UHGV virus genome: UHGV-0138922 | Source: a virus | DNA: 36,008 nt | Strand: one strand, 5' to 3' | Shown: one piece after another, positions 50 through 35,673 of the stretch | Numbering within the stretch: the first letter of the stretch is position 1 | Layout of the letters: every line of letters starts with the position of its first letter | Position numbers and translations under genes: made by a program | The notes under the pieces: generated by a model | Told to the model about the DNA's origin: nothing | Seen by the model: the letters and a program-made list of their open reading frames with translations, nothing else | Database searches by the model: none

Positions 50-391
50 TTAAAGGTCTGCAAATTCCGCAATCGGTGCCATACCGCGAGATTCAAGGAA
101 GTTCAGTAAGCGGCGCGGAGAAACATTCAAAATGCGCTCTGGCGGAAAATCTACCGCGTCGAGGATTTTAAGACACTCTTCAAATTCACCCATGGTAAAC
201 GCGGTGTGAGAATCCGAGCCTAATGCCACCCAACCTCCAGCGTCACGTACCGCTGCGGCTACCGCACGACAATTGTCTTCACTTCCCTTACGTGAGTGTA
301 AAAAAGAGGAATTATTGATTTCCAGCGCCACCTGATGTTTCGCGGCTGCTTCAGCAACGGCTTTAACATCTATTTCATATTTCGGATTGCC
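50..391 (-). pseudogene. ycdX: 3' fragment of PHP-family phosphoesterase gene (YcdX-like), truncated at the prophage junction
   Basis: ORF-track protein from [29 protein letters not shown] through the GSDSH motif to ...PIAEFADL looks like the C-terminal ~115 aa of a PHP-domain protein; the upstream 55 codons of the 170-aa ORF are AT-rich and antisense to gene 431-700; GC content drops sharply near 392. Confidence 0.6.
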
Positions 392-430
392 TAATATCAT
401 GTACCCACAATAACACGAGAGGATACAACG

Positions 431-700
431 ATGAACATTACCAAAGCAATCCATAACTATGCTCGCCGCCGTGGAATCGAACTTCAACTCGAAGATGAGC
501 AGGTTAGATTCTGGGAGACTGAACAAGATTGTGAATGGATGTTCAGCTATTCGATTGCTCAATGTGGTTGCTTGTTCTGGAAAGGTAATGTGTATCTTCC
601 CCGCGATATTAAAGAAGAACTTCCGGCGATGATTGGCACCGATAAGAAGTTAAAGGAAGTCTTAGATTTTATCCACAAAGAGTTTATTAGCAAGAAGTAA
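431..700 (+). CDS. Hypothetical 89-aa Cys-containing protein at prophage end
   Basis: ORF with GAGAGGA ribosome-binding site about 8 nt upstream of ATG 431; followed by a hairpin terminator. Confidence 0.55.
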
Positions 701-1657: not shown

Positions 1658-1677
1658 ACGCGGTAGGGGCTTTTTTG
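1641..1677 (+). terminator. Rho-independent terminator
   Basis: GCCCCTA...TAGGGGC stem followed by TTTTTTGTTT. Confidence 0.6.
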
Positions 1678-1689
1678 TTTGGAAATGGT

Positions 1690-3369
1690 ATGAAAACTAA
1701 ACTGTATTCGTATATTCGCTTCTCGTCTATGCGTCAGAATGATGGTTCGAGTTATGAACGACAAATCAGGATGGCTAGAGAGATTGCGGCAAAGTATGAC
1801 CTTGAACTGGTAAATGATTATCAGGATCTGGGTGTATCTGCGTTTAAGGGTGCTAACTCTAAAACAGGGGCGCTATCTCGTTTCCTTGATGCAATTGGTA
1901 GATCCGTTCCTGTTGGTAGCTGGCTATTCATCGAAAACTTGGACCGTTTATCCCGTGCCGATATTGTCAGTGCGCAGGAGTTATTCCTTTCAATCATCCG
2001 TAGGGGAATAACCATTGTTACTGGCATGGATAACAAGATCTACTCGCTGGATACTGTTACCGCTAATCCGATGGACCTGATGTTCTCCATCCTTTTATTC
2101 ATCCGTGGTAATGAGGAAAGCCAGACTAAGCGCAATCGTACTAACTCAAGCGCACTGATTAAGATTAAAGCCCATCAAGAAAATCCCCAGAATCCGGCAG
2201 TGGCAATCGAGGAAGTTGGAAAGAATATGTGGTGGACGGATACCACTTCCGGTTATGTGCTGCCTCATCCGGTGTACTTCCCTGTTGTTCAGGAGATTGT
2301 GGAATTACGGAAGAATGGACGTTCAACCGCCGAAATACTGGATCACCTTAACGAGACTTATACACCGCCACCAGCGGTTAGCAACAAGAAGCATTCAAAA
2401 TGGTCACGGGCAATGGTTGAAAGGTTGTTTCATACCCGCGCTTTGATTGGTATCAAGGAGGTCTCTGTAGATGGCGTTAACTATGAGTTAAAGGATTATT
2501 ACCCTCGTGTTATTGATGACCCTACGTTCTATCACCTTAAGAAAAATATTGGTGCTAGAGCATGGAACTTCGGAGACAAGGAAGAAGTTAAACCGATCCC
2601 CCTGCTTAGTGGTATTGGCCTATTGAAATGTGATCATTGCGGTTGCGCTATGGTTAAAGTGAAGGGAACGAACAAACGTTCTGACCAGTATCGTTATACA
2701 TGTGATGCGACCCGTTCACGTAGACTTGATTGCGAGCATCCAAACTGGAGTTTTCGAGGTGATCAATTAGAGAAAGCTGTATTGCAATTGCTGGCTGATA
2801 AAATCTGGATTGCTGAGGACAAGGCTAATCCGGTTCCGGCGTTGAAAGTACAGGTTGATGAAATATCACGCAAGATTGATAACCTGATTGCCCTTTCTGC
2901 TATGACAGGAGCAACGAAGGAGCTAGCCGATCAGATTACTACCCTCAATAGCGAGCGTGAAACACTCTACAATCAGATCAAGATGGCAGAAGAGGAAATG
3001 TATTCTGTTGACTCTCAAGGCTGGGAGAAGCTCGCAGAATTTGATTTAGAAGATGTTTACAACGAGGAACGACTAAAGGTCCGGTTTAAGATTAAGCAAG
3101 CTCTAAAGCGGATCGGGTGTAGCAGGATTGACAGAAACAAAAACTTGTTTGTACTGGAATACATCGATGGAAAGACCCAGAGAGTTGTAATAGAAAATTC
3201 AAGAGGAACGAGGAAAGGACAAATCTTTGTCGATTTGAAAACTATCAATGATAGGCAGATTCTGGAGAGTAACGGGCTTGTTCTGCATCCATGTTTAGAC
3301 ATGCTGACAGATAAGAACTGGAAACCAGAAGAGGAAATACCAGGTCCATTACAGGAATTTGGAATTTAA
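1690..3369 (+). CDS. Large serine recombinase (phage integrase)
   Basis: N-terminal resolvase-type catalytic motif YSYIRFSSMRQ; long recombinase domain; Cys-rich zinc-ribbon (CDHCGC...YRYTCD...C) and C-terminal coiled coil; ATG 1690 is the likely start (track start 1675 is TTG). Confidence 0.88.
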   Translation: MKTKLYSYIRFSSMRQNDGSSYERQIRMAREIAAKYDLELVNDYQDLGVSAFKGANSKTGALSRFLDAIGRSVPVGSWLFIENLDRLSRADIVSAQELFLSIIRRGITIVTGMDNKIYSLDTVTANPMDLMFSILLFIRGNEESQTKRNRTNSSALIKIKAHQENPQNPAVAIEEVGKNMWWTDTTSGYVLPHPVYFPVVQEIVELRKNGRSTAEILDHLNETYTPPPAVSNKKHSKWSRAMVERLFHTRALIGIKEVSVDGVNYELKDYYPRVIDDPTFYHLKKNIGARAWNFGDKEEVKPIPLLSGIGLLKCDHCGCAMVKVKGTNKRSDQYRYTCDATRSRRLDCEHPNWSFRGDQLEKAVLQLLADKIWIAEDKANPVPALKVQVDEISRKIDNLIALSAMTGATKELADQITTLNSERETLYNQIKMAEEEMYSVDSQGWEKLAEFDLEDVYNEERLKVRFKIKQALKRIGCSRIDRNKNLFVLEYIDGKTQRVVIENSRGTRKGQIFVDLKTINDRQILESNGLVLHPCLDMLTDKNWKPEEEIPGPLQEFGI

Positions 3370-3441: not shown

Positions 3442-4617
3442 TTAGAGAGCCTCTAAGAGAGTATTAAAGTATTCATCCATTAAATCAGGACTGTCGTCAT
3501 CAATACAGAAAAATTCCGGTTTATTGATGCCGTAGAAGTGAGTATGTAGCTTGAATGTATCGTCATCAAATACATCTTTCGGGGATACCCACATATTAGC
3601 CTCGTCCGGTTGATTGGTTAGGTAGTCATAAACCAGTTGCTGTAAGTGTGGTAACTCATCAATAGTCAGAGTTTCCGACCATCCATCCTTGAAATCTTTG
3701 TAGGGTGCTGCATGAGTCTTGAAGCGTTGTTTTACTTCATGCTCTAAATCAACGGCTTTCCAACCATCCTCAAACTCATGAGTAAAGATTAATCTGTGAG
3801 TGAAGTTGCTCTTTCTGGTTTGCTCTCTCATTCGTTCTTCTGGTTTCCGGGTAGTGATTCCAAATTTAATAAATTTGTCATCTAATAATTGAATGTAGAA
3901 ACTAGCCTTACCCTGATAAGTCCGGTTAGACAGTTGCACCAGTTGGTCTTTAATGCAAAGCGGACAAGTGAAAGAATCAGCACATCTTAAATGAGATTCC
4001 CATTCGTGGTTATGTGTCTTGCAATAGGTTTTAAATTTAACATCCTTTAGGTGTGGGGTGTTTATGATGAATCCTTTGAAGGTGTAAGGCGTACTCTCGC
4101 AACGTGCATTGATGATTGTCTCTTTGTCCTTAATAACTTCATCAAAAGTCTTGCCACTTCTTACCCGTTGGGATTTTTCAGCCATACAGATTTTGCAATC
4201 AAAATCGAAATCATCTTTGAGTGCATGTAATAGAGATGGCGTCATGATTTGATTGTGTTCAGGGCACAAAACACGGGCTTTCGTTCTATTTCGCCCTTTC
4301 CATTCTCCTTGCCATCCGAGGAATTTCTTTCCCTTCTCATTACAACGAGATTCCATTTTCAACCATACAGCCTTTTCAGTCTGGAATAACTCACCCCCGT
4401 TAGTATCTTCCAGTTTGCGTAATTTGTAGTCCTTATATTCTTGTGTATCTAAATTGTAGATTCGAAAGTAAGTGTGATTACCCTTCCACGGTAGGATAAA
4501 TCCACCAAATACGAAAGCAGGTTCCAGTTTAGCGATGATTCGTTGTTGGTACTCTTCCGGCGATAAACCGCGAGTTTTCTTAACAAAAGGAATTTCGGCA
4601 GCGTAAGCAAGTTTCAT
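3442..4617 (-). CDS. Zn-ribbon + GIY-YIG (T5orf172-like) nuclease-domain protein, 391 aa
   Basis: GIY-YIG-like motifs SFYIQ...KFGITTR...E; several CxxC pairs; start moved to the internal ATG at 4617, which has an AGAGGAAA ribosome-binding site (track start 4728 lacks one). Confidence 0.6.
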   Translation of the reverse strand: MKLAYAAEIPFVKKTRGLSPEEYQQRIIAKLEPAFVFGGFILPWKGNHTYFRIYNLDTQEYKDYKLRKLEDTNGGELFQTEKAVWLKMESRCNEKGKKFLGWQGEWKGRNRTKARVLCPEHNQIMTPSLLHALKDDFDFDCKICMAEKSQRVRSGKTFDEVIKDKETIINARCESTPYTFKGFIINTPHLKDVKFKTYCKTHNHEWESHLRCADSFTCPLCIKDQLVQLSNRTYQGKASFYIQLLDDKFIKFGITTRKPEERMREQTRKSNFTHRLIFTHEFEDGWKAVDLEHEVKQRFKTHAAPYKDFKDGWSETLTIDELPHLQQLVYDYLTNQPDEANMWVSPKDVFDDDTFKLHTHFYGINKPEFFCIDDDSPDLMDEYFNTLLEAL

Positions 4618-4676
4618 AGTAGTTTCCTCTAAAATAATAAGCTCACTACTATTTATTAGAGAAAATTGTCTTACTA

Positions 4677-4704
4677 TTGCATTCTCTATCTGAATGTGTA
4701 TAAT
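4677..4704 (+). promoter_or_regulatory. Sigma70-like promoter (TTGCAT-N16-TATAAT)
   Basis: Hexamers read directly from sequence, about 65 nt upstream of gene 4772. Confidence 0.45.
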
Positions 4705-4771
4705 ACGCGACCCTAAATCCCAAACCAACCATATTGAGGTTATGCCTATAAGTTAAAAAAGTGAGGTCTAT

Positions 4772-5341
4772 ATGATTCCAGTAATGGCTAAAGATATTGT
4801 TTTTACTCCTAAATCCTCCCGTGCTGTAACTCCATCGGCATTAGAACAACGCATTCTGACTCACATCAAAGAGAAGGACTTACCGTTAGTCTTTCATGGC
4901 TTTCTGGGTGAGTTTAAAGGGCTTCATTCAAGAATTGCTCTTACATGTACCCGATGCGGCAATAGAGCCGACAAATCAGCTACCAACCTGCTTAATGAAG
5001 GTAAACGCTGTGCATGTCTCAAAAGTGATTACTTTCAATATAAAGCGGGTGTGCCTTATCTCTATGTAATGAAATCAGGGGATATTGGTAAATTTGGTGT
5101 TACAAAGTCAATCATCAAGCGACGCATTAATCTGGGTGTACGCAATCCCGGTCATAACTTTGATATTGTCTTTGCTGGTGAAATGCCATCAATGAAACAT
5201 GCTTTAGCCACTGAAAGAGCAATAAAGAGATTACTGGATGTGGGTATAGGCGGGATTGAATACGGCAAAACTGAAACATTCCACTACTGCAATAAATCAC
5301 TAAACAATATAAAGAATATTGCAAGTGTGGAGTGGAACTAA
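4772..5341 (+). CDS. Zn-ribbon + GIY-YIG nuclease-like protein (189 aa), paralog of 3442-4617
   Basis: CxxC...CxC then PYLYVMKSGDIGKFGVTKS...R...E (GIY-YIG spacing); collinear similarity to the 391-aa protein. Confidence 0.65.
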   Translation: MIPVMAKDIVFTPKSSRAVTPSALEQRILTHIKEKDLPLVFHGFLGEFKGLHSRIALTCTRCGNRADKSATNLLNEGKRCACLKSDYFQYKAGVPYLYVMKSGDIGKFGVTKSIIKRRINLGVRNPGHNFDIVFAGEMPSMKHALATERAIKRLLDVGIGGIEYGKTETFHYCNKSLNNIKNIASVEWN

Positions 5342-6831
5342 TGCAAGATATTAAAATTCATTTTCAAGATTACAGTTTCGTTAAGGTTGATTGCTCTCCT
5401 TCTATCGGAATGGAATTAAGAGATTATTTCTCGTTTGAGGTTGAAGGGGCTAGATTTAGCCCCCGTTACAAGTATTCCGGCTGGGATGGAAAGATAAGAC
5501 TGTTTACGCATGAAAATACCTTGCCAATCGGATTATTGAAAACATTAGGTATCTTCGCTAAAAACATGGGCTATAGCGTATGGGTAGACCCCAGATTGCT
5601 TGAGAAGGAAGATGTAACCAAAGAATCAATTGATTCATGGATTGACTCTTTAGAAGTGTATTCCGGTAGCAATAAAATCAATCCTTACTGGTATCAAAGG
5701 GAGGCAGTATTTCAGGGTATCCATAATCGCCGTAGAATGCTGGTTCTTCCTACCAGTGCCGGAAAGTCATTGATTGCTTGTATGCTGTCTCGTTGGTACT
5801 TAGAGAACTACACCGGAAAGATTCTAATCATTGTCCCGACTACATCGCTGGTGGTTCAAATGAGGGATGATTTTGTCGATTATAGGCTATTCCCTTATGA
5901 AGCAATCCATACAATGATGAGTGGTAGCGGGAAACATCCGGGAGACAGGTTAATCACTGTTTCAACCTGGCAATCAGCTTGCAAGATGCCTCCTGAATGG
6001 TTCCGACAATATGGAATGTTGATAGTTGATGAATCACATCGCGCTAGTGCAAAGAATATCACCAATATCATCAACGGAATGAATCACTGTCAATTCAAGA
6101 TTGGTATGACTGGTTCCCCGAAAGAATCAAAGTGCCATCTCATGCAGTATGTCGGGTTGTTCGGTGATATTCAGAAGATAGTAGCAATCAAGCAATTGAT
6201 GGATGACGGACAAGTTACCCAGCTTAAAATTAATGCTCTCTTCCTTAAGTACAAAGATGAAGAATGTAAAGCAATGCGGGGCAAAGATTATCAGGAAGAG
6301 ATTAAATTCATCAATGCTCATAAGGTAAGGAATAAACTGGCTTGTAATTTGGCCTTAAAACTCGCCAGGAAGCAAGAAAACGTATTTTTGATGTTCCGGT
6401 ACTCTAAGCATGGAAAAATGCTTTATAATGCATTACAGCGCGTTTACGATAAGGTTTATTACGTTTCCAGTGAGATTACCACCGCCGAACGCGATGCCTT
6501 AAAGAAAATGGCTGAAAATGAGAAAGGATTGATTGTAGTTGCTAGCTATGGTGTTTTCTCTACTGGCGTTTCAATTAAGAATCTTCATCATGTTATTTTT
6601 GGTCATCCGGTGAAAGAATCGACCATTGTCCGGCAATCAATAGGACGTGCTCTTAGGAAACATGGTAGTAAGGCAATTGCTGTTGTATGGGATTTGATAG
6701 ATGTGATTTGTTCGAAAGACAAGAAAGGAAAATATACACGCAAGAATTATGCTTTAACTCATGGCCTCCAGAGAATCAATACTTACATATCAGATCGCTT
6801 CGAATATGCCACGAAAACAATCGAGATTTAA
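5341..6831 (+). CDS. uvsW: T4 UvsW-like SF2 (DExH) DNA helicase
   Basis: Walker A LPTSAGKS, motif II LIVDESH, motif III MTGSP, motif VI IGRALRKHG; N-terminal region MQDIKIHFQDYSFVKVDC...WDGKIRLF resembles the UvsW N-terminus as I recall it; ATG overlaps the upstream stop (TAATG); track alternative start is GTG 5332. Confidence 0.82.
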   Translation: MQDIKIHFQDYSFVKVDCSPSIGMELRDYFSFEVEGARFSPRYKYSGWDGKIRLFTHENTLPIGLLKTLGIFAKNMGYSVWVDPRLLEKEDVTKESIDSWIDSLEVYSGSNKINPYWYQREAVFQGIHNRRRMLVLPTSAGKSLIACMLSRWYLENYTGKILIIVPTTSLVVQMRDDFVDYRLFPYEAIHTMMSGSGKHPGDRLITVSTWQSACKMPPEWFRQYGMLIVDESHRASAKNITNIINGMNHCQFKIGMTGSPKESKCHLMQYVGLFGDIQKIVAIKQLMDDGQVTQLKINALFLKYKDEECKAMRGKDYQEEIKFINAHKVRNKLACNLALKLARKQENVFLMFRYSKHGKMLYNALQRVYDKVYYVSSEITTAERDALKKMAENEKGLIVVASYGVFSTGVSIKNLHHVIFGHPVKESTIVRQSIGRALRKHGSKAIAVVWDLIDVICSKDKKGKYTRKNYALTHGLQRINTYISDRFEYATKTIEI

Positions 6832-6836
6832 TAAAT

Positions 6837-6854
6837 AGGGGCTTTAATGCCCCT
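6837..6854 (+). terminator. Hairpin (AGGGGC-tttaat-GCCCCT), weak terminator or attenuator
   Basis: Stem-loop immediately after the helicase stop, followed by a T-rich tract. Confidence 0.35.
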
Positions 6855-6876
6855 TTATTCTACGGAGATTAAAAAA

Positions 6877-7128
6877 ATGATTAGCTTTAAACGTTTTTTG
6901 GTTGAGGCCGCGATCGACGGTTTCATGAGTAAGATTTATTCTTGTAATACTATCGAGGGATTAAATGAACTTGAGGCATATTATGAGAAGCGCAAGAAAG
7001 AAACAGAATTGAAACCTGCTGATGATATTTCGATCCGTGATGCCATCGCCGGACGACGCAAGCAACTGGAAGCGGAGAACGAGCCGGAAGACGATTTTTC
7101 TATCATCAATTTGTGCCAGATAAAATAA
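6877..7128 (+). CDS. Small acidic protein (83 aa)
   Basis: GGAG about 10 nt upstream of ATG 6877 (track start 6847 lacks a ribosome-binding site); followed by a strong terminator. Confidence 0.5.
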   Translation: MISFKRFLVEAAIDGFMSKIYSCNTIEGLNELEAYYEKRKKETELKPADDISIRDAIAGRRKQLEAENEPEDDFSIINLCQIK

Positions 7129-22762: not shown

Positions 22763-23185
22763 TTAAAAACGCGCTAGATAAGAAAATTTAAGACTAAGTG
22801 TCCCAACGATACCCCCATCACTAGAATCATCGTCATAATCGGTATTAGAAGCGACTGGAGTTATATCTGAAATGGAGAAGCCCAAATCTTTAAAACGTGG
22901 GTTATCTGGCTGAATCTGGATTATCTGGCAAATACCCTCATGAATTTTCGTTTCATGAATCTGAGAATATAATTGCATTTCGATAACGCATTCAGCTTGC
23001 ATTGCATTACCACCACGGACCCTAGTGTAAGTCTCATTCATTCCGGTAATCCAACACACCACGTCATCGCTAAAACCAGTTTGAGTTTGTTCTACGTTTA
23101 AAGCCAGACCTAGATCTTGTTCGATAATATCCTGTAAAGCACGTTTAATCTTAAGACGTGGCATATTATTAACGGTAGCGAGCAT
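22763..23185 (-). CDS. Head-tail joining / neck protein (putative)
   Basis: Position between capsid and tail genes; AGGGGGTG ribosome-binding site supports the internal ATG near 23185. Confidence 0.4.
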   Translation of the reverse strand: MLATVNNMPRLKIKRALQDIIEQDLGLALNVEQTQTGFSDDVVCWITGMNETYTRVRGGNAMQAECVIEMQLYSQIHETKIHEGICQIIQIQPDNPRFKDLGFSISDITPVASNTDYDDDSSDGGIVGTLSLKFSYLARF

Positions 23186-27747: not shown

Positions 27748-29655
27748 TTAGAACGATGTTACCCAGCTACGGCCTCTATTTGGGCGTCTGGCGATGTTTT
27801 GACGTTGTGGTCGTGTGATTGGCTTAGTTTCTTCGATTTGCTCGTCAGATTGCGTTTTAGGAGCTTCTACGGATTCTTCGACAACACGGTTTAAGCTGTC
27901 TTTCATTGCAATGAGTTTATCCCATGACATTTTTGAAAGAACGTAGCGAGAAGCAGCATAGCTATAAACCAGACAGTCGAGAGCCTCGTTTCGGGTACTA
28001 CCTGGATTTTTCACCCAACGAACACCAGTAGTAGTACGCTTGATGGATTCACTCAAAAGCTGATCGAGATAATCATCAGGAACGGTTTCTGATATTTCTA
28101 GGCCGATATGAGGATTGTCTTTCAGGTTTCTAACCAGCATTTCACGAACAGCGGATTTACCAACGTTAACACCCAACATAAGCAATTCATGACCACCTGT
28201 GCGGGTAGGTTTAACCGGAATCACTGGAGCATTACCAGATGAACTACCTTTGATAGCGTGTAGGTTCTTCCACTTACCGCAAATACGGTATCCGGCTTGA
28301 GTGAATCGACCGTTTGATGTATCGAGGAAGCTGGCGAGCATTGGTACACGTTCACCATTAACGTTATAGAATTTGGTTTTCTTGAAGTTAACCAGGCGAT
28401 CCCATACAGGTGATTCATATCGTTCACAGTTATGATCGTAAAAGCTGCGGTGATCCAGAATGTAAACCTTATCTTTCGCTACACCTAAGATGGTAGATTC
28501 TGCGCGATCCAATTGCTGGTCAATTCCTGAGCACAAGAAAATTACGTCATCAGGGATATTCTCGATAGAAACATCTGTTTTGAGTTGTTCCAGTTCATTG
28601 GCTTCTACGGCAGTGTCCTGATCATCGTATACCTTACCTAACACGGTGTTATAAAATGATTGTAAATCAAAGGATTGCCACGCATGACTAAAATCAACCA
28701 CACAAGCGCGAATCGTGCTAAAAGGTGAATACAGACGACTGATCCAGAATCCTGCTACTTCACTTTCACGGGTTGCTCTCCACTCGCCTTGCGCTACTGC
28801 CCTGATTCGTTCCCCTTCGGTCCATGCGTTCTTACAGTGGGGGCAAATATAACGAGCGGTATCAGGATCAGGTAAGTTCTTACCATCAATGTTACGCCAT
28901 TCAAATTGAACGTTTTCCCACTCGATCACCTGGTGTTCCCCGCAATGCGGACACGGAACAAAAAACATACGCATGTCGCTTGATAACCATTGCTGGTTAA
29001 TGCTTCCGAGCTTACTGGTCGGGGTACTGGATACGACTAATCGACCTTCATCCCCAAAGGTAGTTAAACGGTTAGCAGCCAGTGCCACCGGATCACCTTC
29101 TTCTGAGGCTGTGGCAGCATCGATTTCGTCAAGTAATCCAACCTTTGCGGTCTTACCACGTAGGGTTGATGGACTGGTAAGCGATACCATGTACAGGAAG
29201 TGATTCGTTTTTAGCTGTAGCTGGTTATTGTTGTTAACCGCATTGCGATCATTCTTGTCTGTAACCACGTCTTTTAATGCATCACATGCTTCGATAGACG
29301 GTCGGATCTTACCAGCGAGATATTGAGACATTTCTTTAGCGGTTGATTGTCCGATAATCATATTGCATGGATCGTTAGCCATCTGGTTAAACAGGATACC
29401 GTTTAGGATGGTAGTTTTTCCGATCTGCGCACTGGTCATCAGAACATACTTTTTCTTGTTCTCAAGGAAAGGAGCATCAATCATGCCTTTCTGGAATGAC
29501 AGCAATTTAACTTTATCCCCAGCTTGAGGACCATCTACCAGCACCATATTCGCTTCGCACCATTCCGATGGAAGGAGTTTAGGCGGTGGCGTAATATATT
29601 TTGCGGCATTTCTAAGAATTCTTTTTAGTTTTGTTTTGTTCGAAATTAGTTTCAT
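27748..29655 (-). CDS. Terminase large subunit (lambda gpA family)
   Basis: Walker A-like TSAQIGKTT, conserved CPHCG zinc-ribbon motif, 635 aa; GAGGGT ribosome-binding site. Confidence 0.88.
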
Positions 29656-29742: not shown

Positions 29743-30345
29743 ATGCTAATTAACCAACAACAAAGGGATGAATTAGATTTAGCCTTATCTTGTACCGATC
29801 ATGAATATCGTTTGCCAGTCAAGCATAAGCATTTAAAAACCGACTACACAACATCCGGTTTTAGCCGTGAGGAAGCGAAAGAGATTTTAATAGAGTTTTA
29901 CCGCGATAATGGTTATACAGACGTTCACAACTTCTTTAAGAAGCATAGAACATCACATACAGAGTTTCGGAGAGTCCGAGATTGGTTTGATTTTGATATC
30001 AAGCGGTTTTACAGGATTGATGACGGTCCGGTCTATCGGTTGCAATGGAAGCCGATCCGAGAAGTGTTGAAACAGAAGAGATTGAATCACGCTGTTACAC
30101 GCTATCGTAACGAGGCATTCAAGAAAGGCTATGGTGATACAAGGGAATTGTTTGTAGAACTCGCTAACGTGCGTTATAGCCACTATTACAACGATCCTAA
30201 AGGATTCTTCGAAGTGCTTCGCAAGGTTGATATTAGTCGGGGTACATACTATTCACGGTTGAAGAAGTACGGGATTAAGGCAGAGTTCTTCATGACCGTT
30301 GACGACTCACCGATGTTCAAGATAAAATGTAAGTCCTCTAAATAA
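29743..30345 (+). CDS. DNA-binding protein with C-terminal HTH-like domain (200 aa); possible small terminase or regulator
   Basis: AAGGGGGG ribosome-binding site; C-terminal ISRGTYYSRLKKYGI motif shared with two small paralogs. Confidence 0.55.
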   Translation: MLINQQQRDELDLALSCTDHEYRLPVKHKHLKTDYTTSGFSREEAKEILIEFYRDNGYTDVHNFFKKHRTSHTEFRRVRDWFDFDIKRFYRIDDGPVYRLQWKPIREVLKQKRLNHAVTRYRNEAFKKGYGDTRELFVELANVRYSHYYNDPKGFFEVLRKVDISRGTYYSRLKKYGIKAEFFMTVDDSPMFKIKCKSSK

Positions 30346-30380
30346 TATTGAGAATTCACTATTGTTTGGAGGAAACTACT

Positions 30381-30605
30381 ATGACTACTAAAGCTACTCG
30401 CGGACGTCCTTGCCGTTTTGATCGTGAACAACTGGCAGCGATTGTAAAAGCGTACTATCAAGCACCGAAAGGTAAAGCTGAAAAAGAGCAAGTATTGAGT
30501 GAACACGGTATTTCAATCGCTCAATTCTACAAATCACTCCATAAAGTTGATTTGAAATTCTTTGTTCAGGTTGACGGTGAAATGGTAGAAGCAACAGGAA
30601 TTTGA
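30381..30605 (+). CDS. Small HTH-like protein (74 aa), paralog family member
   Basis: MTTKATRGRPCRFDREQLAAIVKAYY...EHGISIAQFYKSLHKV; GGAGG ribosome-binding site upstream of ATG 30381. Confidence 0.55.
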   Translation: MTTKATRGRPCRFDREQLAAIVKAYYQAPKGKAEKEQVLSEHGISIAQFYKSLHKVDLKFFVQVDGEMVEATGI

Positions 30606-32530: not shown

Positions 32531-32570
32531 AGTTGGTAATCCTCTAAAAGAAAGTGAATCAAACAAATTA

Positions 32571-32846
32571 CACTAGTATTTATAACGAGAATTTTTTATC
32601 TATTTGGAAGTGATTGGTATTCAGTCTGGCTAAAGCCATCCTTCATGTACTAGAACAAGAATTATACAAAACAAATTTTCTTCTATAATAATATTATATA
32701 ATAGTTCTTCGTTTTGATTAAATGATCATCAAACCAGTATTGACGCTCTCCAGAGCGTCTGCGAAGCAATCTATTACCTTCTAGTATTATCAAAGTGATT
32801 CCAACTACCTTTCTAGTAACCAGTTAGTAATCATCTAGTATTAAAT
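32571..32846. promoter_or_regulatory. Cluster of five CTAG-containing sites ([A/T]CTAGTA[A/T]), candidate operators
   Basis: ACTAGTAT 32571, TACTAGAA ~32650, TCTAGTATTA 32781, TCTAGTAAC 32812, TCTAGTATTA 32835; the first overlaps a candidate -10 for gene 32530. Confidence 0.4.
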
Positions 32847-32869
32847 CCCTTTCTAAGAAAATCCTTTCA

Positions 32870-33000
32870 AAAGTGAGTGAACGCCGTAGGCGTGAACGTG
32901 AGCGAAGCGAACTATCCAATCCCTTTCGAATCCTGCTTGCAGGTCTTAGAAGGTGTTGGTGGGCGCTACGCGCACGGCTACGCCGTATTCTTTTTGTGAG
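32870..33000. other. GC-rich hairpin-dense non-coding element (possible small RNA or recombination/packaging site)
   Basis: ACGCCGTAGGCGT, GCGCTACGCGC and ACGGCTACGCCGT hairpins; direct repeats GTGAGCGAAGCGAAC / GTGAGAGAAAGCGAAC; local GC far above surroundings. Confidence 0.35.
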
Positions 33001-33118
33001 ATCTTTCTTGAACGCTAGTGAGAGAAAGCGAACAAAAAGGAGAACGTTAGTTCGAGTTTTATATTCTATGGTCTGTGTGGTCAAATGCTTTTGCAAATCA
33101 TACACTTACGTGATTGAA

Positions 33119-33240
33119 GTGTAGGGTTAGTGTAGGTGTGTAGGTTTCATAGTGTAGGTTTGGACATGTTCTAGTGTAGGTTTACTGGCTAGTGTAGTGT
33201 AGGCCAATCCCTTTCATGTGTAGGTTTGTAGTGTAGGTTT
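33119..33240 (+). repeat. Iteron array: 8 direct copies of GTGTAGG(TTT)
   Basis: Copies start at 33119, 33130, 33138, 33152, 33174, 33197, 33218, 33231. Confidence 0.8.
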
Positions 33241-33330
33241 TTCATCAAAAATTTTGATAAAAAATTCTTGTATATTATTTAACCAAAAAATCATCAAAAA
33301 TCGCTGTAAGTTAATGATTTAAAAGGAATT
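33241..33330. promoter_or_regulatory. AT-rich tract with ATCAAAAATTTTGAT palindrome and repeated ATCAAAAAT half-sites
   Basis: Perfect 15-bp palindrome at 33244-33258; half-site copies near 33292 and 33395. Confidence 0.55.
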
Positions 33331-33354
33331 GTCAAAAGGTCACCGTGCTATAAT
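33326..33354 (+). promoter_or_regulatory. Promoter with extended -10 (TGcTATAAT)
   Basis: TG at 33346-47, TATAAT at 33349-54; weak -35 GAATTG/TTGTCA. Confidence 0.55.
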
Positions 33355-33434
33355 AGGTTATAAAGGTTGATAATCCTGATCAGCCGTTTTCACACAAAAA
33401 TTTTGATAGTCATTTCTCGCCTAGATCATGGGTA

Positions 33435-33463
33435 TTGACAATAGTCAAGAACTATTTTATACT
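33435..33463 (+). promoter_or_regulatory. Sigma70 promoter (TTGACA-N17-TATACT)
   Basis: Hexamers read directly; about 340 nt leader to gene 33806. Confidence 0.6.
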
Positions 33464-33805
33464 TTTTCTCACTGGTGGGGGTTGAAATTTTCAAAACAAT
33501 CCCCATATAGATGATAGGCAAGAATTTCTCTTGTATAAATACATGCATGAAAATGATTGTTCACTTCTGAAATCTCCAGATTCACTGTTAATTCATACAG
33601 CACTGGTTAGATATACAGTGCTTTTTCGGTTGAATAATGTACGAATTGATTAATTATTAATCTTCTCTTTAGCAATTCGTGCTCCCACTGATCGGATATA
33701 CAGTAGTTTTACAGGGTTTTTCGAAAATCATTTTATAAATAGATATGTCGAGAGCGAAAAGCTCTTTTTAAAGTTTTCATTATTCCACAATTGAGGATTC
33801 TACTT

Positions 33806-33985
33806 ATGGCTAGACCTGTTAAATTTACCCGTGAAATGATTGTTGATATTGCTAAACGCTTTTATGGTGACACTGAACGAGGCGGTGAGAACTTCTTTAA
33901 GAAGGAAGGAATTGATAGAAGCGGATTCTACAAACTAATGAAGAAATACGAGATTCAAGTAAAGATTAACGTTCAAGTTTGTTAA
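33806..33985 (+). CDS. Small HTH-like protein (59 aa), paralog family member
   Basis: MARPVKFTREMIVDIAKRFYGD...EGIDRSGFYKLMKKYEI; GAGGA ribosome-binding site before ATG 33806. Confidence 0.55.
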   Translation: MARPVKFTREMIVDIAKRFYGDTERGGENFFKKEGIDRSGFYKLMKKYEIQVKINVQVC

Positions 33986-34028
33986 TCACCTTTCACTGAG
34001 AATTATATGATGGCTTTAAAAATAAAAA

Positions 34029-34057
34029 AGCCTCCCTGTTGGCGCAAGGAGGCTTTT
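34029..34057 (+). terminator. Rho-independent terminator
   Basis: AGCCTCC...GGAGGCT stem followed by TTTT. Confidence 0.55.
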
Positions 34058-34103
34058 GGTATGAAACATTAAAAACTAACACAGAGTATTCAGGAGTATT
34101 TAT

Positions 34104-35129
34104 ATGAAAAATTCTAAGCGCATCACCTTCAACCTGTTCATCAAATCCAATGGCAAACTGAACATTACTGTTATGGAAGGTAAAGCAAGCAAACAAGACA
34201 AATCCTTTGAAGTAGTATCCGGTAAGACTCTGACCGAAATGCGTCAGAATGCTGGCATCAAAGACGGTGCTGAATGGCAGATCACTAACCGTTTCGACAA
34301 ACGTCACGTTAAACCTACACTGGTAGAAGGTGAATCCGTTTATTGCTTCGCTCGTGCTGTTAAAGCTGATGAGACTTACTATCTCGCTGTTGTTAAAACT
34401 GCTTCCGGCTTCCGTGCTGTAATGCATCACAAGAGCAAGCGTAACGAATACGGTGTAGAGACCCAGGAAGTTGCAAAACGCTTCCGTACTGTTGCTACTG
34501 AATCCACTGTAAAGGATGTTTCTGGTACTGTTAACACCGCTAAAGGTGGTTCCTTCTACAACCATGCATTACAGGTTACTTCCTCCTTCTTCTGCAAAAA
34601 AGAAGCACAGAAAGAAGTTGCTCCGGTGGTAGTTGAAGAAGTTAAAGAAGAAGTTGCAGTGGTTGAATCTTCCGAAGTTGAAGCACTGAAAGCTGAACTG
34701 ACAGCAGTTAAAGCGGAAAATGCTTCCCTGAAAGAAGAAAACGCATCTCTGAAAGCAGAACTGGCAGCACAGGAAACCACTTTCGAAGCAGCGGTTGAAG
34801 TTGAAGCAGTTGAAGAAAAATCCATTGATGAAGAACTGGAAGAACTCCTTAACTATCGCTGGGGTAACGGTGAAGTAGAAGAACAGGAAAACGAGAAAGA
34901 AGCTGATCCGGTAGTAGTTCCGGTTGAAGTTGAAGCAGAATCCGCACCAGTTACTAACTTTGAAACCCTGCGCAATAACTTTATGGCTAAATTCAAAACT
35001 ACTTGGGAAGATACCGAAGAAGAACAAGAAGATATTGAAGTAAACGAAGACGAGATCCGAGAAGCACAGATGGCACTGCATGACGCTATCTATGACACTA
35101 ACTACAGCGCCTACGCATACGCAGCTTAA
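34104..35129 (+). CDS. Acidic coiled-coil protein (341 aa) with host-optimised codon usage; function unknown
   Basis: CAGGAG ribosome-binding site; codons dominated by CGT/CTG/GGT/TTC/AAC/GAA unlike neighbouring phage genes; C-terminal half Glu/Ala/Val-rich heptads. Confidence 0.65.
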   Translation: MKNSKRITFNLFIKSNGKLNITVMEGKASKQDKSFEVVSGKTLTEMRQNAGIKDGAEWQITNRFDKRHVKPTLVEGESVYCFARAVKADETYYLAVVKTASGFRAVMHHKSKRNEYGVETQEVAKRFRTVATESTVKDVSGTVNTAKGGSFYNHALQVTSSFFCKKEAQKEVAPVVVEEVKEEVAVVESSEVEALKAELTAVKAENASLKEENASLKAELAAQETTFEAAVEVEAVEEKSIDEELEELLNYRWGNGEVEEQENEKEADPVVVPVEVEAESAPVTNFETLRNNFMAKFKTTWEDTEEEQEDIEVNEDEIREAQMALHDAIYDTNYSAYAYAA

Positions 35130-35143
35130 TCGAGGGTGAATCT

Positions 35144-35386
35144 ATGATGAATCAAAACAAAGAATTTCTGGGTAATCTGATGTTAGAAATTACCAAAATG
35201 AAAGAGCGTATGGCAAAGATGGAATCAGAGATTAAATCACTTAAAGCTGATAACGCCGCATTACGAAAGAGTTTAAAACTGATTGATGAGACTAATGCGG
35301 TTATGATGGATCATGTATTCCCTGAATGGCGAAATGAAACTAAACCTACACAACATAAGAAACCTACACTTCGGATTGTTGCATAA
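35144..35386 (+). CDS. Small leucine-zipper-like protein with basic C-terminus (80 aa)
   Basis: GAGGGTG ribosome-binding site; the C-terminal KPTQHKKPTL is encoded by two inverted iteron copies. Confidence 0.55.
   Translation: MMNQNKEFLGNLMLEITKMKERMAKMESEIKSLKADNAALRKSLKLIDETNAVMMDHVFPEWRNETKPTQHKKPTLRIVA
35342..35369 (-). repeat. Two inverted iteron copies (AAACCTACAC on plus strand)
   Basis: Exact reverse complements of GTGTAGGTTT at ~35342 and ~35360; another at 34311-34320; TAGGTTAGGTTT at ~35421. Confidence 0.7.
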
Positions 35387-35391
35387 AAAAA

Positions 35392-35415
35392 GGGAGTCCC
35401 ATTTAAGAGACTCCC
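35392..35415. terminator. Hairpin terminator (T-run on minus-strand side, A-run on plus)
   Basis: GGGAGTC-ccatttaaga-GACTCCC; minus-strand reading is followed by UUUUUUU. Confidence 0.5.
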
Positions 35416-35673
35416 TATAGTTAGGTTAGGTTTGCACAACAAAGATGAGGTTATAATGAACATAATGCTACATTATTCTTTAAAGCCAGAAAATAACCGC
35501 CCCTTTCGAGGCGGGAGGATTAATACTCAATCTATACTTGTTATGTTTTTATGATGTATAGATCACTGACTATGAAAACACTGTACTGGAGTTGTGTTTT
35601 ATGGCTTTTAATCGGGAATCCTCAAAGAAGATCCCCTGTTAATAACCATAAGGAGAAAAGGCAGATTACACTA

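What the first reader, a model, noticed from the sequence alone, without database searches (positions are those of the whole stretch)
34311..35436. Inverted iteron copies inside downstream coding sequences
The exact reverse complement of the iteron (AAACCTACAC) occurs at 34311-34320 inside the 341-aa gene and twice at about 35342 and 35360, where it encodes the basic tail KPTQHKKPTL of the 80-aa protein. A related TAGGTTAGGTTT lies near 35421. A given 10-mer is expected about 0.07 times by chance in 36 kb on both strands. Direct array upstream and inverted copies downstream bracket genes 33806-35386, which suggests looping or autoregulation by one binding protein.
Basis: seen in the sequence. 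Interest (0 to 1): 0.5.

Follow-up and report, generated by a model that had tools for sequence, protein, structure and literature searches.

The report
Extra repeat copies inside phage genes
Three exact reverse copies of a prophage's 10-base repeat really do sit inside two downstream genes, written into lysine-proline-threonine codons by unusual codon choices, but only the E. coli branch of this phage family has them, so they look like recently evolved, optional binding sites and not a core part of the system.

Summary
AAACCTACAC occurs 8 times in 36 kb (0.07 expected). Five exact copies lie in a direct array at 33138-33240, which has 8 copies counting degenerate ones from 33119. Three inverted copies lie at 34311, 35342 and 35360. 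No other exact copy exists in the window.

The window is an E. coli prophage inserted in ycdX. Relatives carry at least four repeat types at the same position: GTGTAGGTTT, TTCAGGGGCAA, CGGGGAT and TAGTGCAGGG. Only the basic N-terminal domain of the 341-aa protein changes with the repeat type, so that protein is the best candidate binder. This rests on covariation alone.

All three in-gene copies read AAA-CCT-ACA (K-P-T). They use rare codons in the most codon-optimised gene of the prophage. Given the peptides, the chance of three exact sites is about 2e-5.

Salmonella relatives have the same repeat and the same HVKPT peptide but use other codons and have no inverted copy. Two other repeat groups also lack them. 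The third copy is broken in 8 of 16 E. coli loci.

Best reading: young, dispensable auxiliary sites for the array-binding protein, probably for feedback on its own operon. Whether the array is a replication origin or a transcription control platform is unresolved. TAGGTTAGGTTT at 35422 is unrelated.

The parts
33119..33240 (+). Direct array of the repeat (T)AGTGTAGGTTT. There are five exact 10-mers (33138, 33152, 33174, 33218, 33231) and degenerate copies at 33119, 33130 and about 33198. Start-to-start spacings are 11, 8, 14, 22, 23-24, 20-21 and 13.
   Evidence: The array is conserved in 16 E. coli loci and 5 Salmonella loci.
34311..34320 (-). Inverted copy 1, inside the 341-aa gene. It encodes K70-P71-T72 plus the first base of L73, using the gene's only CCT codon and one of its two ACA codons.
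   Evidence: It is exact in all 16 E. coli group-A loci. In Salmonella the same peptide is encoded AAA CCG ACC CTG and similar, which does not match the repeat.
35342..35351 (-). Inverted copy 2, in the tail of the 80-aa gene (T-K-P-T-Q). It lies in a 6-residue stretch that the Salmonella homologues lack.
   Evidence: It is exact in all 16 E. coli group-A loci.
35360..35369 (-). Inverted copy 3, in the tail of the 80-aa gene (K-K-P-T-L). It overlaps the conserved C-terminal peptide (K/R)PTLR(I/L/V)VA.
   Evidence: It is polymorphic: CCT is CTT (Pro to Leu) in 8 of 16 loci.
34104..35129 (+). 341-aa gene ('big'), the candidate array-binding protein. It has a basic N-terminal domain of about 170 aa (pI 9.8), an acidic coiled-coil half (pI 4.1) and a conserved C-terminal helix. 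It has the highest optimal-codon fraction in the prophage (0.84).
   Evidence: The N-domain type tracks the repeat type in all loci compared. Codon use. Charge. No family or fold match.
35144..35386 (+). 80-aa coiled-coil protein with a basic tail. It is present in every group-A locus and in the Salmonella loci. Larger proteins with the same tail replace it in groups C and D, and group B has no such gene.
33806..33985 (+). 59-aa basic protein, first gene of the operon. It is not the specificity determinant, because the same allele occurs with repeat types A and B.
33241..33345 (.). Conserved AT-rich stretch (76% A+T) that abuts the last repeat in groups A, B and C.
33346..33354 (+). TGCTATAAT, which reads as an extended -10 promoter element. 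It is conserved in relatives.
   Evidence: Read from the sequence. This is a consensus match only.
33435..33463 (+). Sigma-70-type promoter TTGACA-17-TATACT (11 of 12 matches), upstream of a leader of about 340 nt and the three-gene operon.
   Evidence: It is conserved in relatives.

Best explanation
The three in-gene 10-mers are real extra copies of the repeat that forms the upstream array. They are most likely recognised by the same phage protein, the product of the 341-aa gene. Its basic N-terminal domain is the only thing that changes whenever the repeat changes.

In the E. coli branch of this prophage family, pre-existing Lys-Pro-Thr codons in that gene and in the tail of the next gene were converted into exact repeat copies. 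This happened through synonymous codon changes and a small insertion.

The copies most probably act as weak auxiliary binding sites. Through them the protein could feed back on its own operon, either by blocking RNA polymerase inside the transcribed region or by looping to the array.

They are an optional, recently evolved layer and not part of the conserved core.

Shown: the statistics, the codon anomaly, the covariation and the lineage restriction. Inferred: that the 341-aa protein binds the repeat, and that binding at the in-gene sites changes expression.
For: - The motif is confined to this region: 8 copies against 0.07 expected.
- All three in-gene copies share orientation and reading frame, and two extend to 11 nt.
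- Given the peptides and window-wide codon usage, the probability of three exact sites is 1.8e-5. The 7 other KPT tripeptides in the prophage all use other codon combinations.
- The 341-aa gene has the strongest codon optimisation of 35 genes (0.84). Even so, the site uses its only CCT (1 of 5 Pro codons) and one of only 2 ACA (of 24 Thr codons).
- Copies 1 and 2 are exact in 16 of 16 E. coli loci.
- Four repeat types occupy the same position. Across 24 loci the N-domain of the 341-aa protein is the one gene product found in all four groups whose type tracks the repeat type. Within group A the 80-aa gene also co-occurs with the repeat, but group B has an array and no such gene. The 59-aa protein, Rha, the upstream acidic protein and TerL assort independently.
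- The closest N-domains (47% identity) go with the closest repeats: TAGTGTAGGTTT against TAGTGCAGGGTT.
- The N-domain is basic, with pI 9.8.
- In sister lineages, extra repeat copies sit next to or just downstream of the operon promoter. This fits a regulatory use of stray copies whose position is evolutionarily fluid.
Against: - Salmonella relatives have the same repeat array and the same HVKPT(L/M) and KPTLR peptides, but no inverted copy at up to 1 mismatch in any gene.
- Groups B and D have none. Group C has only one short, statistically weak match.
- Copy 3 is destroyed by a nonsynonymous change in 8 of 16 E. coli loci.
- Invariance of copy 1 is uninformative. Only 7% of columns vary in that gene segment, so a 10-nt window is invariant by chance about 47% of the time.
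- The sequence in the Salmonella sister clade (AAACCGACCC) matches the repeat at 8 of 10 positions, so only two synonymous differences separate it from copy 1.
- No DNA-binding fold or family could be assigned to the 341-aa protein.
- There are no binding or expression data.
Confidence: 0.45

Rival explanations
1. The array is the phage replication origin and the 341-aa protein is its origin-binding organiser. On this view the in-gene copies are replication-control repeats. They would titrate or pair with the origin in cis, in the manner of the downstream repeat clusters of P1 (incA) and F (incC) or the distant single repeats of R6K. They would not be transcription feedback sites.
For: - The direct repeats favour spacings of 11, 20-23 and 41 bp in all four groups.
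- The array abuts a conserved 76% A+T stretch and strong promoters.
- The prophage encodes no recognisable initiator, primase or polymerase, only UvsW and UvsW.1 helicase parts.
- A variable N-domain on a more conserved C-terminal part mirrors the way lambda O varies with its repeats (own knowledge).
- Control repeats in P1 are dispensable for replication (own knowledge), which fits the lineage-restricted presence here.
Against: - No conserved DnaA boxes, IHF sites or GATC clusters were found.
- No winged-helix Rep fold or family was detected.
- The repeats have a core of only 7-12 bp, against 17-22 bp for classical plasmid repeats (PMC4980987).
- Codon use predicts a protein more abundant than the major capsid protein, which is unusual for an initiator.
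- Stray copies in sister lineages cluster around the operon promoter, and group D has a sigma-54-type promoter downstream of the array. Both point to transcription.
Confidence: 0.2
2. The in-gene copies have no function. K-P-T peptides that are needed for protein reasons happened to lie close to the repeat sequence. Drift at synonymous sites then produced exact matches that spread with the successful E. coli lineage.
For: - The peptides occur without the sites: HVKPT and KPTLR(I/L/V)V(A/G) are found in Salmonella and in groups C and D with other codons.
- The Salmonella sister-clade sequence at copy 1 already matches at 8 of 10 positions.
- Copy 3 is decaying.
- The copies are absent from all other lineages.
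- E. coli loci are closely related (7% variable columns), so their agreement largely reflects shared descent.
Against: - Three independent exact 10-mers, all in the same orientation and frame, have a conditional probability of about 2e-5.
- They use rare codons in the most codon-optimised gene of the prophage.
- Two of the three extend to 11 nt.
- Copy 2 lies in an inserted 6-codon stretch that begins with a fresh exact copy.
Confidence: 0.22
3. The inverted copies act at the RNA level. A transcript through the array would carry repeated GUGUAGGUUU, which is complementary to AAACCUACAC in the operon mRNA. This would give antisense control like the RNA-based immunity of P4 or P1 c4 (own knowledge).
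For: - There is perfect 10-11 nt complementarity at three mRNA sites.
- A conserved structured element with a terminator-like end lies just left of the array.
Against: - That element ends in a hairpin plus T-run at about 32995, before the array.
- The predicted promoters lie downstream of the array.
- Repeat spacing at multiples of the DNA helical repeat and covariation with a basic protein domain point to recognition of duplex DNA.
- The complementarity is absent in every other lineage.
Confidence: 0.06
4. The array is the terminase recognition site (like lambda cosB) and the 341-aa protein is the missing small terminase subunit. The in-gene copies would be extra packaging signals.
For: - The large terminase is of the lambda gpA type and no small subunit is annotated.
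- The 341-aa protein has the layout DNA-binding domain, coiled coil, conserved C-terminal helix.
Against: - Two large-terminase types, 59% identical to each other, assort independently of repeat type and of the 341-aa protein.
- The gene lies 4.5 kb from the terminase gene on the other strand, in a separate operon.
- There is no similarity to any terminase small subunit family.
Confidence: 0.05

Closest known systems
P1 plasmid replicon (incC origin repeats, repA, incA control repeats) and mini-F (incB, repE, incC). Recalled from own knowledge, not tested here.
   Same: A cluster of direct repeats lies upstream of the gene for the repeat-binding protein, and further copies of the same repeat lie downstream. 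The downstream copies are dispensable for the core function and serve control.
   Different: The downstream copies here are only three, lie inside coding sequences as K-P-T codons, and occur in a single sub-lineage. The repeat is about 11 bp, not 19 bp. The protein has no detectable Rep or winged-helix similarity. An origin function is not established.
R6K gamma origin with distant single or half repeats at the alpha and beta origins, contacted by pi-mediated looping. Recalled from own knowledge. The general properties of such repeats are taken from PMC4980987.
   Same: One large repeat array plus isolated copies about 1-2 kb away, one of them close to or within the initiator gene. This arrangement suggests protein-mediated looping.
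   Different: There is no evidence that the in-gene copies are origins. They are not conserved among relatives. The protein family is unrelated.
Lambda O protein and the ori-lambda repeats, as specificity modules among lambdoid phages (own knowledge; see also PMC7466680)
   Same: A variable N-terminal DNA-recognition domain covaries with the repeat sequence, and repeat copies lie inside a coding sequence.
   Different: In lambda the whole origin lies inside the O gene. Here the array is intergenic, about 0.9 kb upstream, and only stray copies are in genes. There is no sequence or fold similarity to O.
Mycobacteriophage L5 'stoperators' (asymmetric repressor sites inside transcribed regions; own knowledge)
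   Same: Asymmetric sites lie within transcription units in one orientation relative to transcription, and could stop elongation when bound.
   Different: L5 has about 30 sites spread over the genome. Here there are 3 sites in one operon and none elsewhere.

Membership tests
Repeat-type (iteron) replication origin with cognate initiator | Several direct repeats in helical register | tested here: met
   There are 8 copies in the window. Spacings cluster at 11, 20-23 and 41 bp across four repeat groups.
Repeat-type (iteron) replication origin with cognate initiator | An adjacent AT-rich unwinding region | tested here: inconclusive
   A conserved stretch of 76% A+T abuts the array. The test was by composition only, and the same stretch carries promoter elements.
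Repeat-type (iteron) replication origin with cognate initiator | A repeat-binding initiator of the Rep, winged-helix or O type encoded nearby | tested here: not met
   Covariation identifies a nearby candidate binder. It matches no Rep or O family and no winged-helix fold. The structural model has low confidence (pLDDT 56).
Repeat-type (iteron) replication origin with cognate initiator | Host-factor sites (DnaA boxes, IHF sites) | tested here: not met
   No conserved DnaA box or IHF consensus was found in 8 intergenic regions.
Repeat-type (iteron) replication origin with cognate initiator | Supports initiation of replication | not testable with these tools
   This needs marker-frequency analysis or a plasmid replication assay.
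Downstream control repeats (P1 incA or F incC type) | Copies of the origin repeat beyond the binding-protein gene, bound by the same protein | tested here: inconclusive
   Exact sequence copies are present. Binding was not tested.
Downstream control repeats (P1 incA or F incC type) | Conserved among relatives that share the repeat | tested here: not met
   They are absent in 5 Salmonella loci with the same array. The third copy is broken in 8 of 16 E. coli loci.
Repressor-operator immunity module | Sites overlap the regulated promoter, and the protein is a recognisable repressor-type DNA-binding protein | tested here: not met
   The array ends 106 bp before the nearest predicted -10 element. 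The protein has no HTH or repressor family hit. However, sister lineages have single copies next to or just downstream of the promoter.
L5-type stoperators | Many asymmetric sites dispersed genome-wide, oriented with transcription | tested here: not met
   There are no copies outside 33.1-35.4 kb.
Terminase recognition site (cosB or pac) with small terminase | The DNA-recognition subunit is co-inherited with the large terminase | tested here: not met
   Large-terminase types assort independently of repeat type and of the 341-aa protein type.
Type II partition centromere (parC and ParR) | An adjacent motor ATPase gene | tested here: not met
   No ParM, ParA or TubZ-like gene is present in the prophage.

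The most novel reading that the evidence does not exclude
An orphan protein family has a variable basic N-domain, an acidic coiled coil and a conserved C-terminal helix, and its codon use predicts very high abundance. Together with its phased repeat arrays, it would define a previously undescribed origin-organiser or immunity module in the ycdX- and hicB-integrating prophages of E. coli and Salmonella, with at least four exchangeable specificities. On this reading, the E. coli branch shows new binding sites for such a protein arising inside coding DNA through selection on synonymous codons.
Probability: 0.25. Interest if true: 0.6.

Novelty: new variant of a known kind. Interest (0 to 1): 0.4.

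Why it matters
If the in-gene copies are functional, they are a clean natural example of regulatory protein-binding sites being written into coding sequence by synonymous codon choice. A sister clade (Salmonella) provides a built-in control: it keeps the same peptides and the same repeat but lacks the sites.

More broadly, the comparison uncovers a modular pairing of repeat array and protein, with at least four specificities, in a common but undescribed family of enterobacterial prophages. The prophage was found in 63 of 5426 complete E. coli genomes. The protein has no known family or fold. Its function, whether origin organiser or transcription control, could be tested directly with the candidate binder and sites named here.

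Tried and rejected
- **Known phage.** No nucleotide or protein match for the region in 50,697 phage records.
- **The 59-aa protein, the upstream acidic 169-aa protein or Rha as the repeat binder.** Rejected, because their alleles assort independently of repeat type and the 169-aa gene is missing in some group-A loci.
- **The 80-aa protein as the binder.** Unlikely, because group B has an array but no such gene.
- **Peptide-only explanation of the copies.** Rejected, because the same peptides are encoded differently in Salmonella and in groups C and D.
- **TAGGTTAGGTTT as a related site.** Rejected.
- **Terminase link.** Rejected by independent assortment.
- **Rfam.** No RNA family found at gathering or E-value thresholds.
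- **Host-factor sites.** None found.
- **Searches that found nothing.** Scans of the genome, viral and metagenome collections for the divergent homologues P0121 and P0123. Those loci were instead obtained through exact-protein look-ups.
- **Corrected assumption.** I first assumed the window was a circular phage genome. It starts in host ycdX.
- **Literature.** Searches for a described ycdX prophage found nothing relevant.
Full report
**1. Observation**

AAACCTACAC occurs 8 times in the 36,008-base window. Dinucleotide-preserving shuffles give a mean of 0.07 and never more than 1. Five copies on the - strand form a direct array of GTGTAGGTTT at 33138-33240. Degenerate copies at 33119, 33130 and about 33198 bring the array to eight. 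Three copies lie on the + strand at 34311, 35342 and 35360, as reported.

No other exact copy exists in the window. At 2 mismatches the motif is at chance level (35 found, 32.5 expected).

All three in-gene copies have the same orientation and the same reading frame, AAA-CCT-ACA-C, which encodes Lys-Pro-Thr. They fall at K70-T72 of the 341-aa ORF (34104-35129) and in the tail ...ETKPTQHKKPTLRIVA of the 80-aa ORF (35144-35386). Two of the three extend to the 11-mer AGTGTAGGTTT, which is the longer consensus of the array.

**2. Context**

The window is a temperate siphovirus prophage of E. coli. Bases 50-562 are the 3' part of the host gene ycdX.

The prophage genes identified are:
- a large serine recombinase
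- two CapR/T5orf172 proteins
- a UvsW helicase with UvsW.1
- lysis, tail and head genes
- a lambda-type portal and gpA-type large terminase
- a Rha protein

No initiator, primase, polymerase or CI-like repressor was recognised.

The array lies in a 1.24-kb non-coding region (32567-33805) between a leftward operon and a rightward operon. The leftward operon holds a 169-aa acidic protein, a 110-aa protein and Rha. The rightward operon holds a 59-aa basic protein, the 341-aa protein and the 80-aa protein.

To the right of the array come, in order:
- a 76% A+T stretch
- a TGCTATAAT element
- a TTGACA-17-TATACT promoter at 33435-33463
- a leader of about 340 nt

There is no match in 50,697 phage records. 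Related prophages occur in 63 of 5426 complete E. coli genomes, inserted in ycdX or in hicB.

**3. Which protein goes with the repeat**

Relatives carry different repeats at exactly the same position:
- Group A (E. coli) and group A' (Salmonella): GTGTAGGTTT
- Group B: TTCAGGGGCAA, 7-9 copies, mostly 21-22 bp apart
- Group C: CGGGGAT, 16-20 copies, often 11 bp apart
- Group D: TAGTGCAGGG, 4-6 copies

Spacings in all groups cluster at 11, 20-23 and 41 bp. This fits binding to one face of duplex DNA.

A whole-prophage comparison of the window with a group-B prophage shows most proteins at 90-100% identity. The 341-aa protein has no detectable match, and the 80-aa gene is absent.

Across 24 loci, only the N-terminal 170 residues of the 341-aa protein track the repeat type. 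They are 99-100% identical in all 16 E. coli group-A loci. They are about 25% identical or less between groups A, B and C. They are 47% identical between A and D, whose repeats differ at only two positions: TAGTGTAGGTTT against TAGTGCAGGGTT.

The other candidates fail this test:
- The 59-aa protein occurs as the same allele with repeats A and B.
- The 169-aa protein is missing in some group-A loci.
- Rha alleles assort freely.
- The two large-terminase types, 59% identical to each other, also assort freely.

Group B has an array but no third gene, so the 341-aa protein is the common factor.

The N-domain is basic (pI 9.8) and the C-terminal half is acidic (pI 4.1).

The family is tiny, with 6 hits among 1.84 billion representatives. 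It has no family or fold assignment. The structural model is reliable only for residues 10-115.

That this protein binds the repeat is therefore an inference from covariation. It has not been shown.

**4. Are the in-gene copies more than a peptide effect?**

The peptides are older than the sites. The tail motif (K/R)PTLR(I/L/V)VA is shared by the third-gene products of groups C and D. There it is encoded CCT ACT CTA and CCG ACC CTG.

Five Salmonella loci provide the key control. Their 341-aa homologues are 78% identical at the nucleotide level in the N-domain, and third-position identity at conserved residues is 0.65. They have the same GTGTAGGTTT array and the same HVKPT(L/M) peptide. They encode it AAA CCG ACC CTG, AAG CCA ACC CTG or AAA CC(A/G) ACC ATG. 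They have no inverted copy, at up to one mismatch, in any gene.

Their 80-aa homologues end ...QEKPTLRLVG or ...KKRVPKLRIVA and also carry no copy. The E. coli tail has six extra residues (KPTQHK) that begin with a fresh exact copy.

Within the window, the 341-aa gene is the most codon-optimised of 35 genes, with an optimal-codon fraction of 0.84 against 0.71 for the major capsid protein. Even so, the site uses its only CCT codon and one of only two ACA codons among 24 Thr codons.

Seven other KPT tripeptides in the prophage use other codons. With window-wide codon frequencies, the probability of three exact sites given the peptides is 1.8e-5.

The DNA-level signal is therefore real. It belongs to the E. 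coli branch only.

**5. Limits on function**

- Copies 1 and 2 are exact in 16 of 16 E. coli group-A loci. These loci are closely related, with 7% variable columns, so this says little.
- Copy 3 carries CCT to CTT (Pro to Leu) in 8 of 16 loci.
- Groups B and D have no inverted copies.
- Group C has one 13-of-14 match inside its third gene. With a 6-7-bp core this is statistically weak.

The arrangement of an array plus inverted downstream copies is therefore not a conserved design.

On the other hand, stray copies are common near the operon promoter in sister lineages. Salmonella loci have direct copies about 70 bp upstream of the TTGACA-17-TATAAT promoter and immediately downstream of it. One E. 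coli locus has a copy about 30 bp upstream of the -35 element. One group-D locus has a copy between a sigma-54-type promoter and the sigma-70 promoter. This recurrent but positionally fluid pattern fits auxiliary regulatory sites for the array-binding protein.

**6. Mechanism**

My best reading (confidence 0.45) is as follows. The in-gene copies are young, optional auxiliary binding sites for the 341-aa protein. They allow feedback on its own operon, either as a roadblock inside the transcribed region or by looping to the array. Inverted orientation is what a simple U-shaped loop would align in parallel. That last point is inference.

The rivals are:
- The same binding serves replication control at an origin, like P1 incA or R6K (0.2).
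- The copies are neutral coincidences carried along by a successful lineage (0.22).
- The array transcript pairs with the mRNA at the RNA level (0.06).
- The sites are packaging signals (0.05).

What the array itself does remains open. The origin reading is favoured by phased repeats next to an AT-rich stretch and by the lack of any other initiator. The transcription reading is favoured by the promoter-proximal stray copies, the sigma-54 promoter in group D, the absence of DnaA and IHF sites and the very high predicted abundance of the protein.

**7. Comparison with known systems**

The layout resembles the P1 and F replicons and R6K: an array, the gene for the binder, and further copies downstream (own knowledge; general properties from PMC4980987). 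The covariation of N-domain and repeat resembles lambda O and its origin.

Membership in the classical Rep-and-repeat family is not supported. There is no Rep or winged-helix similarity, the repeats are short, there are no host-factor sites, and replication could not be tested. Membership in the L5 stoperator, cosB or parC families failed defining tests.

**8. Verdict**

The finding is a new variant of a known kind: extra copies of a repeat outside the main array, here embedded in codons and lineage-specific.

The more durable result is the pairing of repeat array and protein, with four specificities, in an undescribed prophage family. Interest is moderate (0.4).

Noticed in passing
window 50-562 (- strand): This ORF is the 3' part of the host gene ycdX (PHP-domain phosphatase, E 6.5e-46). 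The window therefore starts in host DNA, and the prophage is inserted in ycdX by a large serine recombinase (1675-3369). Some relatives sit in hicB instead.
   Followed up: partly
window 34104-35129: The 341-aa gene has the highest fraction of E. coli optimal codons of all 35 genes (0.84, against 0.71 for the major capsid protein). This predicts a very abundant protein. It has a basic N-terminal half (pI 9.8), an acidic C-terminal half (pI 4.1) and no known family or fold.
   Followed up: partly
window 32883-32995 (+ strand): A conserved GC-rich element of about 110 nt lies just left of the array. It folds into a closed structure with a variable inner hairpin (2 compensatory pairs in 4 sequences) and ends in a hairpin plus T-run. 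It may be a small RNA. There is no Rfam match.
   Followed up: partly
window 29743-30345, 30378-30605, 33806-33985: The 59-aa protein (MARPVKFTRE...) has paralogues in the same prophage: a 75-aa protein and two repeats inside a 200-aa protein next to the terminase gene. Their function is unknown. Their alleles assort independently of everything tested.
   Followed up: partly
L024 3286-3301; L025 3230-3245: Group-D relatives carry a near-consensus sigma-54 promoter (TGGCACGGTnTTTGC) between the repeat array and the operon. None is present in the window or in groups A, B or C.
   Followed up: partly
L031 3266 and 3391; L029 3405 and 3427; L019 2214; L024 3311: Sister lineages have single extra repeat copies flanking or just downstream of the operon promoter. 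Most are in direct orientation.
   Followed up: yes
L007 2100, L008 2392, L009 2057, L010 2371: In some loci the group-B array is followed by a remnant group-A copy (exact GTGTAGGTTT plus two TGTAGG). This is a trace of array replacement by recombination.
   Followed up: no
window 27748-29655 and relatives: The large terminase exists in two types that are only 59% identical, within prophages whose portal and neighbouring genes are 92-97% identical. The types assort independently of repeat group.
   Followed up: yes
window 35118-35129 and 35372-35386: The 341-aa protein ends ...YAYAA and the 80-aa protein ends ...LRIVA. Relatives end ...LRLVA and ...LRVVA. These resemble ssrA-like C-terminal degradation tags (own knowledge) and may mark unstable proteins.
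   Followed up: no
window 33245-33258 and 33394-33407; 32844, 32918, 33204: Two further repeated motifs occur in the control region. One is a near-palindrome, TCAAAAATTTTGA, present twice and 149 bp apart. The other is AATCCCTTTC, present three times, once inside the array.
   Followed up: no
window 33597-33627 and 33750-33775: The 340-nt leader before the 59-aa gene contains two hairpins followed by T-runs, which look like attenuators or terminators. It also contains a conserved motif, CTCTTTAGCAATTCGTGCTCCC, which is present twice in some relatives.
   Followed up: no
window 22908-22998: ARAGORN calls a 91-nt 'tRNA-Glu' on the + strand inside a - strand structural ORF. This is probably a false positive.
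   Followed up: no
window 5332-7128 and 3442-5341: A T4-type UvsW helicase with a separate UvsW.1 gene, and two CapR/T5orf172 (homing-endonuclease-like) proteins, are present. These are unusual in a 37-kb temperate siphovirus that has no recognisable initiator.
   Followed up: no
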